This document shows positions 2,015-7,023 of a stretch of 17,398 nt of DNA, piece after piece; position 1 is the stretch's first letter, and each line of letters begins with the position of its first letter. A program made the translations under genes and the position numbers. The stretch covers positions 1 through 17,398 of the IMG/VR virus record IMGVR_UViG_2778261177_000007. One strand, 5' to 3'. Source of the stretch: a virus. Its lineage: Duplodnaviria; Heunggongvirae; Uroviricota; Caudoviricetes. The notes under the pieces were generated by a model. That model was not told the DNA's origin, made no database searches, and was given only the letters and a program-made list of their open reading frames with translations.

Positions 2015-2112
2015 CTTTCATTAATCCCTGAATTGTTGGTTAATACGCTTGAGGGTGAATGCGAATAATAAAAAAGGAGCCTGTAGCTCCATGATGATTT
2101 TGTTTTTCATGT

Positions 2113-2596: not shown

Positions 2597-2751
2597 ACCG
2601 CCTCCCGTTTATTATTTATCTTCTCAGCCAGCCGCTGTGCTTTCAGTGGATTTCTGATAACAGAAAGGCCGGGAAATACCCAGCCTCGCTTTGTAACGGA
2701 GTAGACGAAAGTGATCGCGCCTACCCGGATATTATCGTGAGGATGCGTCAT
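2569..2751 (-). CDS. Lambda orf60a-like small protein
   Basis: ORF in the position of lambda orf60a; starting at the third codon ([15 protein letters not shown]...) gives 60 aa and the 4-nt overlap with exo seen in lambda. The ORF track's longer version starts at 2757. Confidence 0.6.
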
Positions 2752-4215: not shown

Positions 4216-4512
4216 TTATACCTCTGAATCAATATCAACGTGGTGGTGAGCAATGGTTTCAACCATGTACCGGATGTGTTCTGCCATACGCTCCTGAAAC
4301 TCAACATCGTCATCAAATGCACGAGTAATGGCTTTTTTGCTGGCCCCGTGGCGTTGCAAATGATCGATGCAGAGTGATTCAAACAGGTGCTGTGGAAGAC
4401 CTTTTTCCATGTCGTCTGCCAGTTCTGCCTCTTTCTCTTCACGGGCGATCAGCTGGTAGTGACGTGCCCAGCTCTGAGCCTCAAGACGATCCTGAATGTA
4501 ATAAGCGTTCAT
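4216..4512 (-). CDS. gam: Gam, RecBCD inhibitor (short GamS form only)
   Basis: 98-aa product matching the C-terminal 98 residues of lambda Gam ([19 protein letters not shown]...VDIDSEV). The upstream long-form N-terminal coding sequence is present but out of frame and truncated. Confidence 0.9.
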
Positions 4513-4587
4513 GGCTGAACTCCTGAAAATGGCTGTGAAAATATCGCCCGCGAAATGCCAGGCTGATTAGGAAAACAGGAAAGGGGA

Positions 4588-4878
4588 TTAGTGATTCAGG
4601 CCGTTACCGCGTCCGTCGAGAAAAACTTCCACGAGCAAATCACGGGTATAAGTGCGCTCGATGCCGCGATGCAGATATAGCCGTCCGCGTAAATTAGCTG
4701 ATGCAGTCCAGGTACCATCTTTGTGTTTGACCAGCATTCCTGGCATGACCGCACCTCGATTAACGGTCTGCGTTCCGTAATGTTGATGAACCATAAAAAC
4801 TCCTGCCCGTAAGCTGGGCTGCTGAACATATAGAGACTTCTGCGCGTATTCAGGCGGTGGATGGCCGCCGGTTGTCAT
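4588..4878 (-). CDS. Hypothetical protein, first ORF downstream of the putative pL (in the N/kil/cIII position)
   Basis: 96-aa ORF with ATG start and a GAGG about 10 nt upstream. No recognisable family and no N-like arginine-rich motif. A competing 77-aa ORF (4596..4829) in another frame lacks an SD. Confidence 0.4.
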
Positions 4879-5049
4879 AACTAAGCCGCCTCGTTGAAGC
4901 GACTAAGGTATGAAATGTTGAGTTGATTTCAGCTGGTCACACCGACGTTCACGCGTCCGTTTCACCCCTCGCACTCCCCGAAGCCTGCTGAAATTCAAAC
5001 TGCGGATCTAAGCGGTCATCGCAACGGTGAATCAGGTAGTTGCCGTATC

Positions 5050-5130
5050 GTTGTGTTGTTGCGATGAACTTATTTAAAACTATAGTTGTTTTATCGTCAA
5101 CAACAAAAGTTGTTTTATTGGTTGTTTTAG
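5050..5130 (-). promoter_or_regulatory. Putative pL promoter with oL-like operator repeats
   Basis: On the minus strand: -35 TTGACG (rc of 5095..5100), 17-bp spacer, -10 TTAAAT (rc of 5072..5077). Embedded in GTTGTTTTA / CAACAAC repeats. A roughly 30-bp module (TTGTTGA..AAAACAAC.ATAGTTTTAA) is shared with the pR side. Confidence 0.45.
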
Positions 5131-5238
5131 ATATAACTGGTTGTATTTAGGATGGATTTATTTTGTGACTTGAATCGCATAGCGATAACTGAAGCGAGGT
5201 TATGGTGGTTTTTTTAACGGTGTGTGTGATGAGGGGAG

Positions 5239-5268
5239 GGCAAAAGAAAACCCGGCACGGTGACCGGG
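5239..5268 (-). terminator. Intrinsic terminator downstream of the repressor gene (tImm-like)
   Basis: Minus-strand RNA CCCGGUCACCGUGCCGGG forms a GC-rich stem and is followed by UUUUCUUUUG. Lies about 120 nt after the repressor stop, between the repressor and the pL/oL region. Confidence 0.65.
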
Positions 5269-5389
5269 ATTCTTACGCCGTTAGGTAAAGATATTATTGC
5301 GGTGGCTTAATATTACTACCTAGAGCAAAGATAGGAATTAGTTCTTTACTGAATGAGCACAATGCCCAGTTGATAATTTTTAATTGGTA

Positions 5390-6079
5390 CTACCCATGCT
5401 TCCTATATGTCTGCGGCATGCTCCCAATAACCTTACCGAAGATGAACACCCGGTTCATCTCGTCTTTCTCGATCGGGTCCCACGGTGAGTAGCTTTTGTT
5501 ATCAGAGATGACCAGCAGCTTATCCTTCATCATTTGCAGGCGCTTTACATGGGCTGTGTCGTCGTACAGAAACGCATAGATACCATCACCGTCGAAAGAT
5601 TTAACTGTGATATCAACGAACAGCAGATCACCTGGTTCGATCGTTCCTGACATGCTGTCACCACGCACGTTAATGATGCGGATATTTTCCGCCTTCCTAC
5701 CATCGAACATGTGACGAGCATCGTCAAACGAGTACTCAACCGAGCGTAGAACTTCTACAAACTCACGGTTGATGACTCCCGGCCCAGCACTGACTTCTAT
5801 ATCAAGAACGTCAATCTTGAAGTATTTGGAATGGCTGACAGTTGATTGTATTGGTTGCACTGTACTGTCTGACATATTTCCAACGCCAGAAGATAACCAT
5901 TCTGCGCGCACACCCAAAGCGTTCGCGATCTCCACGATTTTAGTTGTTTGATTAGCTTTCCCTGTTTCGATTTTCTGAATAGCAGCCTGGCTAACCCCGA
6001 CCAAATCCCCAAGCGCCTTTTGTGTAAGGCCTCGCGCTAATCTGGCTTCTTTAAGTCTTTCTGAGAGTGTTGTTTTCAT
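5390..6079 (-). CDS. cI-like phage repressor (N-terminal XRE-type HTH, C-terminal S24 LexA-like peptidase domain)
   Basis: HTH segment LTQKALGDLVGVSQAAIQKIETGK; Ala-Gly autocleavage-type site (VSAGPG); S24 motifs (VRGDSMSGTIEPGDLLFVD, ...HVKRL). Start set at the internal ATG 6079 (MKTTLSERL...); the 251-aa ORF-track version from 6145 would begin inside the operator palindrome. Confidence 0.85.
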   Translation of the reverse strand: MKTTLSERLKEARLARGLTQKALGDLVGVSQAAIQKIETGKANQTTKIVEIANALGVRAEWLSSGVGNMSDSTVQPIQSTVSHSKYFKIDVLDIEVSAGPGVINREFVEVLRSVEYSFDDARHMFDGRKAENIRIINVRGDSMSGTIEPGDLLFVDITVKSFDGDGIYAFLYDDTAHVKRLQMMKDKLLVISDNKSYSPWDPIEKDEMNRVFIFGKVIGSMPQTYRKHG

Positions 6080-6183
6080 AGTCCAAATGTACAACCAAGG
6101 TTTTATTTCATCAAACGAAAATGGTTGTTGATTAAAAACAACCATAGTTTTAATCTTGATTCAAATTAACCACGGAGGTTGTT
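6080..6183. promoter_or_regulatory. oR-like operator region with divergent pRM/pR promoters
   Basis: Perfect 8-bp-arm palindrome ATGGTTGT-N9-ACAACCAT at 6121..6145 and a second ACAACC..GGTTTT site at about 6093..6108. Putative pR: -35 TTGATT, -10 TTTAAT, then the GGAGG SD of the cro-like gene. Confidence 0.5.
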
Positions 6184-6414
6184 ATGAACCCAGCTATCAA
6201 AACAGCGATCAATATCGTTGGTTCACAAAAGAAACTGGGCGCTGCTTGCGAAGTTTCACAGCAGGCCGTCTATAAGTGGCTTCACAACAAAGCAAAGGTA
6301 TCCCCTGAACATGTCGGCAGCATTGTTACGGCTACTGGTGGAGTAGTGAAGGCATACCAGATTCGCCCGGATCTTCCGAAGTTGTTTCCACACACCGAAA
6401 AGAACGCAGCTTAA
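6184..6414 (+). CDS. Cro-like / YdaS-family HTH regulator
   Basis: 76-aa ORF divergent from the repressor, GGAGG SD 6 nt upstream of ATG, HTH-like segment (QKKLGAACEVSQQAVYKWLH); occupies the cro position. Confidence 0.8.
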   Translation: MNPAIKTAINIVGSQKKLGAACEVSQQAVYKWLHNKAKVSPEHVGSIVTATGGVVKAYQIRPDLPKLFPHTEKNAA

Positions 6415-6426
6415 ATTTCCATTTCA

Positions 6427-6439
6427 CGCTCTTTAACAA
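6427..6439 (+). promoter_or_regulatory. boxA-like antitermination element at the nutR position
   Basis: CGCTCTTTAACAA lies 13 nt after the cro-like stop; matches the rrn/lambdoid boxA consensus (TGCTCTTTAACAA) at 12 of 13 positions. No convincing boxB hairpin follows. Confidence 0.5.
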
Positions 6440-6483
6440 TAAGCAATCAACTTAACAGTCAATTCAAACTAAAGGAGTCAATT

Positions 6484-7023
6484 ATGCAACCACTTACATA
6501 CCAACAGACTAGCGGATTTAGCCCGACTGCGGTGATAAATCGTTCTCAAACAAAACAGGCGCCAGGCCACGAAAAAATCCGTGATGCCGTTCGCGCCTGG
6601 TCGGCTGCAGATAATCAGGATGTTGTTGCCGCACTCATTGTGAATGAGTATCGGGAGCAGGGCGGCGGCACCATCGATTTCCCTGATGATGTCAGCCGTG
6701 CACGCCAGAAGCTGTTCCGCTTCCTCGATAACAAATTCGATTCTGAAAAATACCGAAATAACGTGCGTGAACTGACCCCGGCAATTCTGGCGGTACTACC
6801 GCTGGAATATCGCGGCCACCTGGTTGAGCAGGATAGCTTCATGGCTCGGCTGGCTGAAATGGAAAAGGAACTCAGTGAGGCAAAACAGGCTGTCATTCTC
6901 AACGCACCACGCCACCAGAAACTGAAGGAGATGAGTGAAGGCATTGTGTCGATGTTTCGTGTGGACCCGGATCTGGCTGGTCCACTGATGGCGATGGTCA
7001 CCACCATGCTGGGGGCAATATGA
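6484..7023 (+). CDS. YdaT-family protein (cII-position regulator)
   Basis: 179-aa ORF with AAGGAG SD; motifs NEYREQGGG and LTPAILAVLPLEYRGHLV resemble Rac-prophage YdaT-family proteins (recall); sits in the cII position after cro. Confidence 0.65.
   Translation: MQPLTYQQTSGFSPTAVINRSQTKQAPGHEKIRDAVRAWSAADNQDVVAALIVNEYREQGGGTIDFPDDVSRARQKLFRFLDNKFDSEKYRNNVRELTPAILAVLPLEYRGHLVEQDSFMARLAEMEKELSEAKQAVILNAPRHQKLKEMSEGIVSMFRVDPDLAGPLMAMVTTMLGAI

What the first reader, a model, noticed from the sequence alone, without database searches (positions are those of the whole stretch)
4879..5389. About 500 bp ORF-free leader between the repressor and the first early-left gene, with no N-like antiterminator
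No ORF of 60 aa or more occupies the N position. The predicted leftward transcript carries long-range inverted repeats: TCATCGCAAC (5016..5025) pairs with GTTGCGATGA (5058..5067), and on the transcript AUUUCAGC pairs with GCUGAAAU around a G-rich 52-nt loop. This could be a structured RNA, for example a put-like cis-acting antiterminator as in HK022, a regulatory sRNA, or a deletion scar.
Basis: partly seen in the sequence, partly recalled or inferred. Interest (0 to 1): 0.6.

Follow-up and report, generated by a model that had tools for sequence, protein, structure and literature searches.

The report
N-less early-left leader of a lambdoid prophage
The gene-free stretch is the ordinary left-hand control region of a very common E. 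coli lambda-like prophage: the repressor's terminator, the operators and promoter, and a long untranslated leader before the toxic kil gene; it lacks both the N protein and the HK022-type put RNA, so how it passes later terminators is still unknown.

Summary
No ORF of 60 aa or more lies in 4879-5389, and both inverted repeats exist.

The stretch is three things rather than one leader:
- 5389-5241: the repressor's 3' tail and intrinsic terminator, an empty cargo slot like lambda's rex position.
- About 5150-5072: four operator repeats and PL.
- From about 5065: the leftward leader. It runs about 270 nt to the real kil start at 4794, not to 4878.

The put idea failed. A covariance model built from nine put RNAs finds the HK022 and HK639 put elements but nothing in this window. 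There is no boxA or boxB in the left leader, no N homologue and no Rfam match.

A small arginine-rich ORF does exist (4965/4998..4903). Its stop codon is polymorphic, natural variants carry frameshifting indels, and it has no relatives outside the family.

The last third of the leader is a hairpin (4904-4884) with strong covariation across five genera, followed by an invariant 27-nt box. In phi80-like relatives this element always follows an intrinsic terminator, which is missing here.

Best reading: an N-module-less composite 5' UTR, probably Rho-sensitive, that controls kil. A new cis-acting antiterminator RNA is not excluded (about 12%).

The parts
5269..5389 (-). 3' untranslated tail of the repressor (cI) transcript. 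This is an empty cargo slot, equivalent in position to lambda rexAB.
   Evidence: No ORF. In PhiR47_2 the same tail and terminator follow a GevT/GevA pair inserted after cI. 4A7 carries an ASCH-domain gene in this region.
5241..5268 (-). Intrinsic terminator of the repressor operon: CCCGGTCACCGTGCCGGG followed by TTTTCTTTTG.
   Evidence: Terminator scan. The only weak Rfam-level resemblance here is to that hairpin plus its U run. It is conserved in PhiR47_2.
5084..5148 (.). OL: four direct repeats of the operator half-site (A/G)GTTGT(T/A)TT(A/T), at 5084, 5108, 5120 and 5139.
   Evidence: Pattern search. The same motif occurs at OR (6134-6143). This block is replaced wholesale in relatives with other immunity types.
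5072..5100 (-). PL promoter: -35 TTGACG (5100-5095), 17-nt spacer, -10 TTAAAT (5077-5072). Inferred start near A5065.
   Evidence: Read from the sequence. Relatives with other immunity regions carry TTGATA-17-TATTAT or TTGACT-17-TATTGT at the same distance from the conserved TCGCAAC. The consensus scan missed it because position 2 of the -10 is T. The start site is inferred, not mapped.
5016..5067 (-). 5'-terminal stem-loop of the PL transcript: a 10-bp stem (8-9 bp if transcription starts at 5065) around a C-rich, G-poor 32-nt loop.
   Evidence: dG = -13.1 kcal/mol, z = -2.6. In relatives A5065G and C5066U keep wobble pairs. The first 21 nt match the PL transcript start of HK639 and phi80-type phages at 17 of 21 positions.
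4926..4994 (-). G-rich irregular stem-loop domain (G 45-47%, C 15%), closed by AUUUCAGC/GCUGAAAU.
   Evidence: dG = -24.7 kcal/mol, z = -1.8. Found only in this phage family. CAGCAGGCTTCGGGGAGTGCGA matches the lambda N-leader at 18 of 22 positions and at the same distance from +1; 17 of 1000 shuffles score as high.
4903..4965 (-). Small arginine-rich ORF, (V/M)KRTRERRCDQLKSTQHFIP*. The longest form starts at TTG 4998. It is in frame with the downstream kil ORF.
   Evidence: GTG 4965 is preceded by GGAG at 8 nt and is ATG in about 11% of loci. The stop TAG 4905-4903 is CAG in about half of the loci. There are 5-nt insertion and 1-2-nt deletion variants. No relatives outside the family.
4884..4904 (-). 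Conserved 9-bp hairpin, AGUCGCUUC-AAC-GAGGCGGCU.
   Evidence: dG = -11.6 kcal/mol, z = -2.95. Over 9 distinct sequences from five genera 98.8% of cells pair, 5 of 9 pairs show changes on both sides, and 0 of 500 shuffles reach the covariation score. Slid registers pair at 31-53%.
4855..4881 (-). Nearly invariant 27-nt box GTTATGACAACCGGCGGCCATCCACCG. A second conserved block, GCGCAGAAGTCT, lies at 4845-4834.
4588..4794 (-). kil (FtsZ-inhibitor family), 68 aa, with Shine-Dalgarno sequence AGGAG at 4804-4800. It is the first real gene of the early-left operon, followed by gam, bet and exo.
   Evidence: PHROG 294 'Kil', E = 1e-38, aligned to residues 20-96 of the 96-aa ORF. The 68-aa Kil proteins of HK225 and KO-TP1 start at the equivalent Met. 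Frameshifting variants occur upstream of 4794.

Best explanation
The interval is the left half of the immunity and control region of a DLP12/PhiR34_1-type lambdoid prophage that has no N module.

Reading leftward it holds:
1. The end of the repressor operon: an empty cargo slot and an intrinsic terminator.
2. OL and PL.
3. A ~270-nt untranslated leader (about 5065 to 4795) in front of kil-gam-bet-exo.

The leader is a composite. It begins with a 5'-terminal stem-loop, which is expected to protect the 5' end (inferred). A family-specific G-rich stem-loop domain follows. A G-free linker then joins it directly to a hairpin-plus-box element. In phi80-like relatives that element sits just after the first early-left terminator.

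The N-position genes and that terminator are absent here. PL transcripts can therefore reach kil and the recombination genes without any antiterminator (shown by sequence; the consequence is inferred).

The leader is long and untranslated, and it has C-rich, G-poor stretches at 5066-5027 and 4936-4897. The most likely role is a Rho/NusG-sensitive zone plus a hairpin-based control point that keeps the toxic kil gene silent unless PL fires strongly. This is how kilR of the Rac prophage is silenced (inferred by analogy).

The right operon carries a consensus boxA without a boxB. This suggests that the phage relies on host Nus factors rather than on an N protein (inferred).
For: Layout:
- Terminator, operator repeats, and promoter equivalence across immunity types.
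- The mosaic boundary falls at about 5064, the inferred start of transcription.

No N:
- None is annotated in the complete, plaque-forming relative PhiR34_1.
- tblastn with lambda N finds nothing.
- PHROG and Pfam scans of the early ORFs give Kil, Gam/Bet/Exo-side genes, YdaS-like Cro and YdaT-like CII only.

Not put.

No boxA or boxB on the left. A boxA, GCTCTTTAACAA, lies on the right at 6428-6439.

Leader length: frameshifting variants and the 68-aa Kil homologues.

Missing terminator: every locus that holds sequence upstream of the element (19 of 20, from five genera and four phages; L138 is cut off there) has a hairpin plus T run immediately before CATACC. The window has GCTGAAATCAACTCAACATTT there instead.

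Conserved hairpin.

No strong minus-strand terminator lies between PL and the end of exo. The first convincing ones are at 2687-2665 and 2090-2076.

Composition.

Rho/NusG silencing of kilR in Rac: PMC5793797.

Prevalence: found in 2251 of 5426 complete E. coli genomes.
Against: - The transcription start, Rho dependence and any effect on kil are all inferred; nothing was measured.
- The G-rich domain sits between the two C-rich stretches and would work against Rho loading. Only the first 78-nt window and those from 4936 downward have C/G above 1.3.
- Two intrinsic terminators lie between exo and xis/int. A phage with no antitermination device would have trouble expressing xis and int from PL, yet members of the family are inducible, plaque-forming phages.
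- The leader is 95-100% conserved across different immunity types. That fits a function beyond being a spacer, though recent spread by recombination would also explain it.
- The 27-nt box is conserved more strictly than a simple leader needs.
Confidence: 0.6

Rival explanations
1. The family-specific part of the leader (the 5' hairpin plus the G-rich domain, 5065-4926) is a new kind of cis-acting RNA. It would make RNA polymerase resistant to termination. In function it would match HK022 put, but it is unrelated to put in sequence and fold.
For: - It occupies the same place, just after a shared ~21-nt transcript start, that put occupies in HK639 and that the boxA-bearing leader occupies in phi80-type phages.
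- It stays with the early-left module across immunity types.
- Terminators at 2687-2665 and 2090-2076 lie before xis and int, and no protein antiterminator is present.
- Its local folds are more stable than shuffles.
Against: - No second copy exists in the right operon or anywhere else in PhiR34_1, unlike put and nut.
- No covariation is available, because all copies are at least 95% identical.
- The z-score of the G-rich domain is only -1.8.
- One common polymorphism (G4965A) breaks a predicted pair.
- No terminator lies between PL and exo, so nothing nearby demands it.
Confidence: 0.12
2. The interval is an evolutionary scar. An ancestral nutL-N-terminator module was deleted or swapped out, and what remains (the degenerate N-leader-like stretch and the arginine-rich ORF fragment) does nothing beyond joining PL to kil.
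For: - The junction element follows a terminator and N-position genes in every relative outside the family.
- There is an 18-of-22 match to the lambda N-leader at the same distance from +1, and a weak collinear similarity to the phi80 leader that 7 of 500 shuffles reach.
- The arginine-rich ORF has a polymorphic stop and frameshifting variants.
Against: - No relative with this immunity region or this leader still carries an N gene, so no 'before' state was found.
- The similarities to lambda and phi80 are marginal (p about 0.015 each).
- The hairpin at 4904-4884 is kept by compensatory changes, so at least that part is under selection.
Confidence: 0.19
3. The arginine-rich ORF (4965..4903) is translated into a 20-aa peptide, or into a long Kil fusion where the stop is CAG. 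It would act as a minimal N-like RNA-binding factor on a hairpin in the leader.
For: - KRTRERRCDQ resembles the lambda N motif TRRRERRAEKQ by eye.
- GGAG lies 8 nt before GTG 4965.
- The two common polymorphisms in the core are GTG to ATG and the synonymous AAA to AAG, while changes upstream are non-synonymous.
Against: - It is too short to hold the NusA- and polymerase-binding parts of N (established knowledge of lambda N).
- BLASTP against lambda N finds no alignment. tblastn against 50,697 phage records finds only the same 16 phages. There is no PHROG hit.
- The stop is lost in about half of the loci, a 5-nt insertion changes the tail, and 2-nt deletions break the read-through frame.
- There is no boxB-like hairpin and no matching site next to the right-operon boxA.
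Confidence: 0.04
4. PL transcripts end at the hairpin 4904-4884, giving a ~180-nt regulatory small RNA.
For: The hairpin is stable and conserved and is followed by UUAGUUAU. The RNA would have a protected 5' end.
Against: - The tail after the hairpin is a poor U run, and the terminator scan did not call it.
- In relatives the hairpin sits 6 nt after a real terminator, so it is not the terminator there.
- There is no Rfam match.
- kil, gam, bet and exo have no other evident promoter.
Confidence: 0.05

Closest known systems
Lambda OL/PL - nutL - N leader, with the cI-rexAB terminator region upstream
   Same: - The order on the leftward strand is the same: repressor, cargo slot, terminator, tandem operators overlapping PL, then a long structured leader.
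- There is a short stretch of similarity to the N leader (18 of 22) at the same distance from +1.
- The genes downstream, kil, gam, bet and exo, are the same.
   Different: - There is no N gene, no boxA and no boxB on the left.
- The leader runs straight into kil.
- The cro and cII equivalents are YdaS/YdaT-type.
HK022 / HK639 put antiterminator RNAs
   Same: The position is the same: immediately downstream of PL in a lambdoid phage that lacks N. The first ~21 transcribed nt resemble those of HK639.
   Different: - It fails a put covariance model that recovers all known puts tested.
- None of the invariant put blocks (CGAACGGC, GGCGGG..CAGGA.GA..GGCAAU) is present.
- There is no second, rightward copy.
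Early-left region of phi80, HK225, Klebsiella phage KO-TP1 and Enterobacter phage ENT1
   Same: They share the transcript start, the hairpin plus the 27-nt box (CATACC-hairpin-GTTATGACAACCGGCGGCCATCCACCG) and, in HK225 and KO-TP1, a 68-aa kil after it.
   Different: Those phages have a ~250-nt leader with a boxA-like TGCTTTTTAACAA, one to three small genes and an intrinsic terminator before the shared element. The window has a different 150-nt leader and no terminator.
Rho/NusG silencing of kilR in the Rac prophage
   Same: Both have a toxic Kil-family gene downstream of a repressor-controlled region in a prophage with YdaS/YdaT-type cro and cII. Read-through transcription is what makes Kil dangerous (PMC5793797).
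   Different: Rho dependence has not been tested for this leader. Rac has other genes between its repressor and kilR (from my own knowledge, not checked here).

Membership tests
put antiterminator RNA (HK022 putL/putR, HK639 putL) | A ~70-nt two-stem RNA with the conserved put sequence and structure. | tested here: not met
   Model R1 was built from 9 put RNAs. It scores 96.7, 89.9 and 58.3 bits on HK022 putL, HK639 putL and HK022 putR. No hit falls in 4795-5070 at E <= 10 with filters off.
put antiterminator RNA (HK022 putL/putR, HK639 putL) | Located just downstream of an early promoter in a phage without N. | tested here: met
   The leader starts at PL. No N is present.
put antiterminator RNA (HK022 putL/putR, HK639 putL) | A related second copy in the rightward early operon (HK022). 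| tested here: not met
   There is no similar sequence on the sense strand of the right operon or elsewhere in PhiR34_1.
put antiterminator RNA (HK022 putL/putR, HK639 putL) | Terminator read-through in cis that depends on the beta' zinc-binding domain. | not testable with these tools
   This needs reporter assays in rpoC mutants.
Lambda-type N/nut antitermination | An N protein: an arginine-rich motif plus NusA- and polymerase-binding regions, about 90-130 aa. | tested here: not met
   Only a 20-31-aa arginine-rich ORF is present. It has a polymorphic stop and frameshift variants and no similarity to lambda N or to any phage protein outside the family.
Lambda-type N/nut antitermination | boxA in the leftward leader. 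| tested here: not met
   The best 12-mer has 4 mismatches to GCTCTTTAACAA and lies inside the conserved hairpin.
Lambda-type N/nut antitermination | A boxB hairpin next to boxA, in both operons. | tested here: not met
   The right operon has an exact boxA at 6428-6439, but the cro-cII spacer is unstructured (dG = -4.1 kcal/mol, z = -0.1). No shared hairpin was found.
Lambdoid OL/PL control region | Tandem operator repeats, also present at OR, overlapping a sigma-70 promoter that points away from the repressor gene. | tested here: met
   Four repeats lie at 5084-5148 and the motif recurs at 6134-6143. The promoter hexamers sit at the same register as in relatives with other immunity types. Repressor binding itself was not tested.
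Described RNA families (Rfam 15) | A match to any curated covariance model. | tested here: not met
   Nothing better than E = 1.3 in 4400-5600. Rfam holds no put model (no hit in HK022), so the put test rests on model R1 alone.
Rho-dependent leader attenuation (as for Rac kilR) | A long untranslated leader with C-rich, G-poor, unstructured RNA before a silenced gene, and sensitivity to Rho/NusG. | tested here: inconclusive
   The leader is about 270 nt and untranslated. C/G is 1.6 in 5066-4989 and 1.6-1.7 in 4936-4846, but 0.5 in between. Rho dependence cannot be tested here.

The most novel reading that the evidence does not exclude
The family-specific 5' two-thirds of the leader (5065-4926: the terminal hairpin plus the G-rich domain, possibly together with the hairpin-and-box element at 4904-4855) is a previously undescribed cis-acting RNA. 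It would let host RNA polymerase read through the terminators at 2687-2665 and 2090-2076 to reach xis and int. That would make it a third solution, after N/nut and put, to early antitermination in lambdoid phages, present in about 40% of complete E. coli genomes.
Probability: 0.12. Interest if true: 0.75.

Novelty: new variant of a known kind. Interest (0 to 1): 0.3.

Why it matters
Lambda-type phages are the textbook case of early gene control by antitermination. Only two solutions are established, the N protein with nut sites and the put RNA.

This prophage family is in 2251 of 5426 complete E. coli genomes and includes plaque-forming phages. It has neither solution on its left arm, and only a bare boxA on its right.

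If the leader is only a leader, the family shows that removing the first terminator together with N is a workable design. It also shows that kil control falls to a long 5' UTR.

If the leader does modify RNA polymerase, it would be a new class of antiterminator RNA.

Separately, the covarying hairpin and the invariant 27-nt box that follow the first early-left terminator in Escherichia, Klebsiella, Enterobacter, Citrobacter and related genera form an unannotated conserved RNA motif. It is worth testing.

Tried and rejected
1. Rfam at a permissive threshold on 4400-5600, and at gathering score on the whole window. Nothing relevant turned up. Rfam also has no put model, so I built one. The result was negative.
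2. A second copy of the leader in the right operon or the full phage genome. None was found. A 12-of-13 match, AATCAACT(C/T)AACA, at 4928-4916 and 6445-6457 is at chance level (E = 15).
3. More distant homologues of the G-rich domain. Sensitive blastn against 50,697 phage records found only the same 16 phages. Covariation could therefore not be tested for the 5' hairpin or the G-rich domain.
4. Homology to the lambda N leader, the phi80 leader and the HK639 leader. These gave short or marginal matches only: 17 of 1000, 7 of 500 and 38 of 1000 shuffles score as high. I treat them as leads, not proof.
5. N homologues by tblastn with lambda N, the phi80 'N' and the N-position proteins of HK225. 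Nothing was found.
6. The arginine-rich ORF against lambda N (BLASTP), PHROGs and all phage records. Nothing was found outside the family.
7. A relative with the same immunity region but an N gene, as a 'before deletion' state. None exists in the phage collection.
8. King et al. 2011, the catalogue of put-like RNAs, is not held in the library. The put alignment in Hwang et al. 2022 is an image. I collected the put sequences by BLAST instead.
9. I considered promoter readings of the 27-nt box on either strand by eye and dropped them, because no acceptable -10/-35 pair exists.
Full report
**What the window is.**
- The window is a lambdoid prophage.
- On the minus strand lie int (1-1143), several lambda-like small genes, exo (3428-2748), bet (4210-3425), gam (4512-4216), a Kil-family gene and an S24/HTH repressor (6145-5390).
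- On the plus strand lie a YdaS-type cro (6184-6414), a YdaT-type cII (6484-7023), and O and P.
- The stretch 4560-5400 is 99.6% identical to the plaque-forming Escherichia phage PhiR34_1. It occurs in 2251 of 5426 complete E. coli genomes.
- PhiR34_1 is a complete DLP12-like phage with 59 annotated genes. It has a Q antiterminator but no N.

**Checking the observation.**
- No ORF of 60 aa or more lies in 4879-5389.
- Both inverted repeats are real. One is 5016-5025 / 5058-5067, a perfect 10-mer with 32 nt between the arms. The other is 4926-4936 / 4984-4994, 10 of 11 with 47 nt between.
- Folded alone, the 5' hairpin has dG = -13.1 kcal/mol (z = -2.6) and the G-rich domain -24.7 kcal/mol (z = -1.8). 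The whole leader gives only z = -1.6.

**The stretch is three different things.**
1. *5389-5241: the repressor's 3' tail.* It ends in a good intrinsic terminator on the same strand, CCCGGTCACCGTGCCGGG followed by a T run. In PhiR47_2 the same tail and terminator follow a toxin-antitoxin pair inserted after cI. This is therefore an empty cargo slot, like the rexAB position of lambda.
2. *About 5150-5072: OL and PL.* Four repeats of GGTTGTTTTA-like half-sites lie at 5084, 5108, 5120 and 5139, and the motif recurs at OR.
   - On the minus strand, TTGACG (5100-5095), 17 nt and TTAAAT (5077-5072) precede the conserved TCGCAAC by 7 nt.
   - Relatives with unrelated operators have TTGATA-17-TATTAT or TTGACT-17-TATTGT at the same distance. 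I therefore place the start near 5065. This is an inference, not a mapped 5' end.
3. *The leader.* Across 124-175 loci from viral contigs, similarity between immunity types begins at about 5064 and continues at 95-100%.

**Where the leader ends.**
- The 96-aa ORF starting at ATG 4878 is not the real kil.
- Several haplotypes carry a 2-nt deletion at 4841/4840.
- The PHROG Kil profile aligns only from residue 20.
- The Kil proteins of HK225 and KO-TP1 are 68 aa and begin at the Met that corresponds to ATG 4794, which is preceded by AGGAG.
- The untranslated leader is therefore about 270 nt, from about 5065 to 4795.

**Is it put?**
- Rfam has no put family, because HK022 itself gives no hit.
- I collected nine put RNAs: HK022 putL and putR, HK639, phiEt88, CobraSix, S9-5, UPF_BP1, PdC23 and PDP110P2.
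- I aligned them and imposed the nested pairs of the cryo-EM structure described in PMC9378689. I then built a covariance model.
- With filters off the model scores 96.7 bits on HK022 putL, 89.9 on HK639 putL and 58.3 on HK022 putR. It finds nothing in the leader at E <= 10.
- The invariant put blocks are absent.
- The leader has no second copy in the right operon or anywhere in PhiR34_1.
- Membership in the put family is rejected.

**Is it nut/N?**
- tblastn with lambda N finds nothing in the window or in PhiR34_1.
- The left leader has no boxA. The best 12-mer has four mismatches.
- The right operon has an exact GCTCTTTAACAA at 6428-6439 between cro and cII. The spacer there is unstructured, so there is no boxB.

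**The arginine-rich ORF.**
It runs from TTG 4998 or GTG 4965 to TAG 4905-4903 and reads (V)KRTRERRCDQLKSTQHFIP.
- In its favour: GGAG lies 8 nt before GTG 4965; that codon is ATG in about 11% of loci; and the other common change in the core is synonymous.
- Against it:
  - The stop is CAG in about half of the loci. This is why PhiR47_2 and others annotate a 128-aa 'Kil'.
  - A 5-nt insertion rewrites the tail, and 1-2-nt deletions occur in and after it.
  - BLASTP against lambda N gives no alignment.
  - tblastn against 50,697 phage records finds only the same 16 phages.
  - At 20 aa it cannot hold the NusA- and polymerase-binding regions of N (established knowledge of lambda N).
- I conclude that it is not an N gene. 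Whether it is translated at all is open.

**What the comparisons show.**
- It is also shared with 16 loci in Enterobacter, Citrobacter, Scandinavium and Huaxiibacter genomes.
- In all of those that extend upstream (one genome locus is cut off there), the element directly follows an intrinsic terminator (for example AGCCGCCTAACCAGCGGCTTTTTT or GACCCGCCACGGCGGGTTTTTT). In the four phages that terminator closes a set of small N-position genes. In the window family the terminator and those genes are absent.
- The element has three parts: CATACC, a 9-bp hairpin (window 4904-4884), and a nearly invariant 27-nt box, GTTATGACAACCGGCGGCCATCCACCG (4881-4855).
- The hairpin is maintained by compensatory changes. 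Over nine distinct sequences 98.8% of cells pair, and five of nine pairs change on both sides. None of 500 shuffles reaches the observed covariation, and slid registers pair at only 31-53%.
- The short ORF that begins in the box (MTTGGHPP...) differs in length and frame after codon 9 between phages. The box is therefore conserved at the nucleotide level, not as a peptide.

**The family-specific part (5065-4917).**
- It has no relatives outside 16 E. coli phages.
- Its first 21 nt match the PL transcript start of HK639 and the phi80-type phages at 17 of 21 positions.
- A 22-mer matches the lambda N leader at 18 positions and at the same distance from +1.
- These matches are marginal: 38 of 1000 and 17 of 1000 shuffles score as high.
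- All copies are at least 95% identical, so covariation cannot be assessed for the 5' hairpin or the G-rich domain.

**How it most likely works.**
- Shown:
  - PL is followed by a long untranslated RNA with a base-paired 5' end.
  - No convincing intrinsic terminator lies between PL and the end of exo. The first ones are at 2687-2665 and 2090-2076.
- Inferred:
  - kil, gam, bet and exo need no antiterminator.
  - The leader has C-rich, G-poor stretches at 5066-5027 and 4936-4897. It offers Rho a loading zone that, with the conserved hairpin and box, keeps the toxic kil silent unless PL is fully derepressed. This is what is described for kilR of Rac (PMC5793797).
  - The right operon relies on a bare boxA, and so on host Nus factors.
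- Weak points:
  - The G-rich domain between the two C-rich stretches would hinder Rho.
  - The terminators before xis and int leave open how an N-less phage expresses them from PL.
  - Those points keep alive the reading that the leader is a new cis-acting antiterminator. I give that about 12%.

**Verdict.**
- The put hypothesis is rejected, and the 'no N' statement holds.
- The 'scar' idea is partly right, in that the leader is joined to a post-terminator element.
- The thing is an ordinary control region with an unusual N-less and put-less leader.
- The most interesting concrete product is the conserved hairpin-and-box motif, which no database describes.

Noticed in passing
window 6428-6439 (+): An exact consensus boxA (GCTCTTTAACAA, preceded by C) lies between the YdaS-type cro and the YdaT-type cII. 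No boxB hairpin follows it, and the spacer is unstructured. This suggests host Nus-factor (rrn-like) anti-Rho protection of the right operon in a phage without N.
   Followed up: partly
window 4916-4834; L004 355-413; L133 2501-2600; L134, L135, L136-L151: A conserved RNA motif that is not in Rfam: CATACC, a covarying 9-bp hairpin, an invariant 27-nt box and a GCGCAGAAGTCT block. In lambdoid phages and prophages of five genera outside this window's family, wherever upstream sequence is held, it lies directly after an intrinsic terminator. Its function is unknown.
   Followed up: partly
window 4795-4878 and 4903-4905: The kil start is probably mis-set in public annotation. Records give 77 aa in a wrong frame, 96 aa or 128 aa, where 68 aa from ATG 4794 fits best. 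The 128-aa form arises where the TAG at 4905-4903 is CAG.
   Followed up: yes
window 5269-5389; L001 3715-5143: The slot between cI and its terminator is empty here. It holds GevT/GevA in PhiR47_2, and 4A7 carries an ASCH-domain gene in this region. It is a cargo insertion site like lambda rexAB.
   Followed up: partly
window 5174-5186 (+): A perfect palindrome, ATCGC-ATA-GCGAT, lies between the cI terminator and OL. It may be a protein-binding site or it may be chance.
   Followed up: no
window 8987-17398: Downstream of P the window departs from PhiR34_1. It carries a 1302-aa inverse autotransporter (intimin/invasin-like, 8987-12895), an alpha/beta-hydrolase on the minus strand (12932-13975), an isrC sRNA (15890-16012 minus, 135 bits) and an IS3-family transposase (16628 onward). 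PhiR34_1 has ren-emrE-ybcK there instead.
   Followed up: partly
L004 900-1140 (minus), L133 1240-1460, L134 3240-3020 (minus), L135 3560-3500 (minus): phi80, HK225 and KO-TP1 share a ~250-nt untranslated PL leader with a boxA-like TGCTTTTTAACAA; ENT1 shares only about the first 60 nt, with a variant box (TGCTCATTAAGAA). The gene annotated 'N' in phi80 (98 aa) has no arginine-rich N terminus. Each small gene in these regions is preceded by the repeated linker GCATTTCTCCCGCATCAGCGGGTAAC.
   Followed up: no
window 2665-2687 and 2076-2090 (minus strand): Two intrinsic-terminator candidates lie between exo and xis/int. The second is strong (GGAGCTACAGGCTCC followed by TTTTTT). It is unclear how an N-less phage reads through them.
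   Followed up: no
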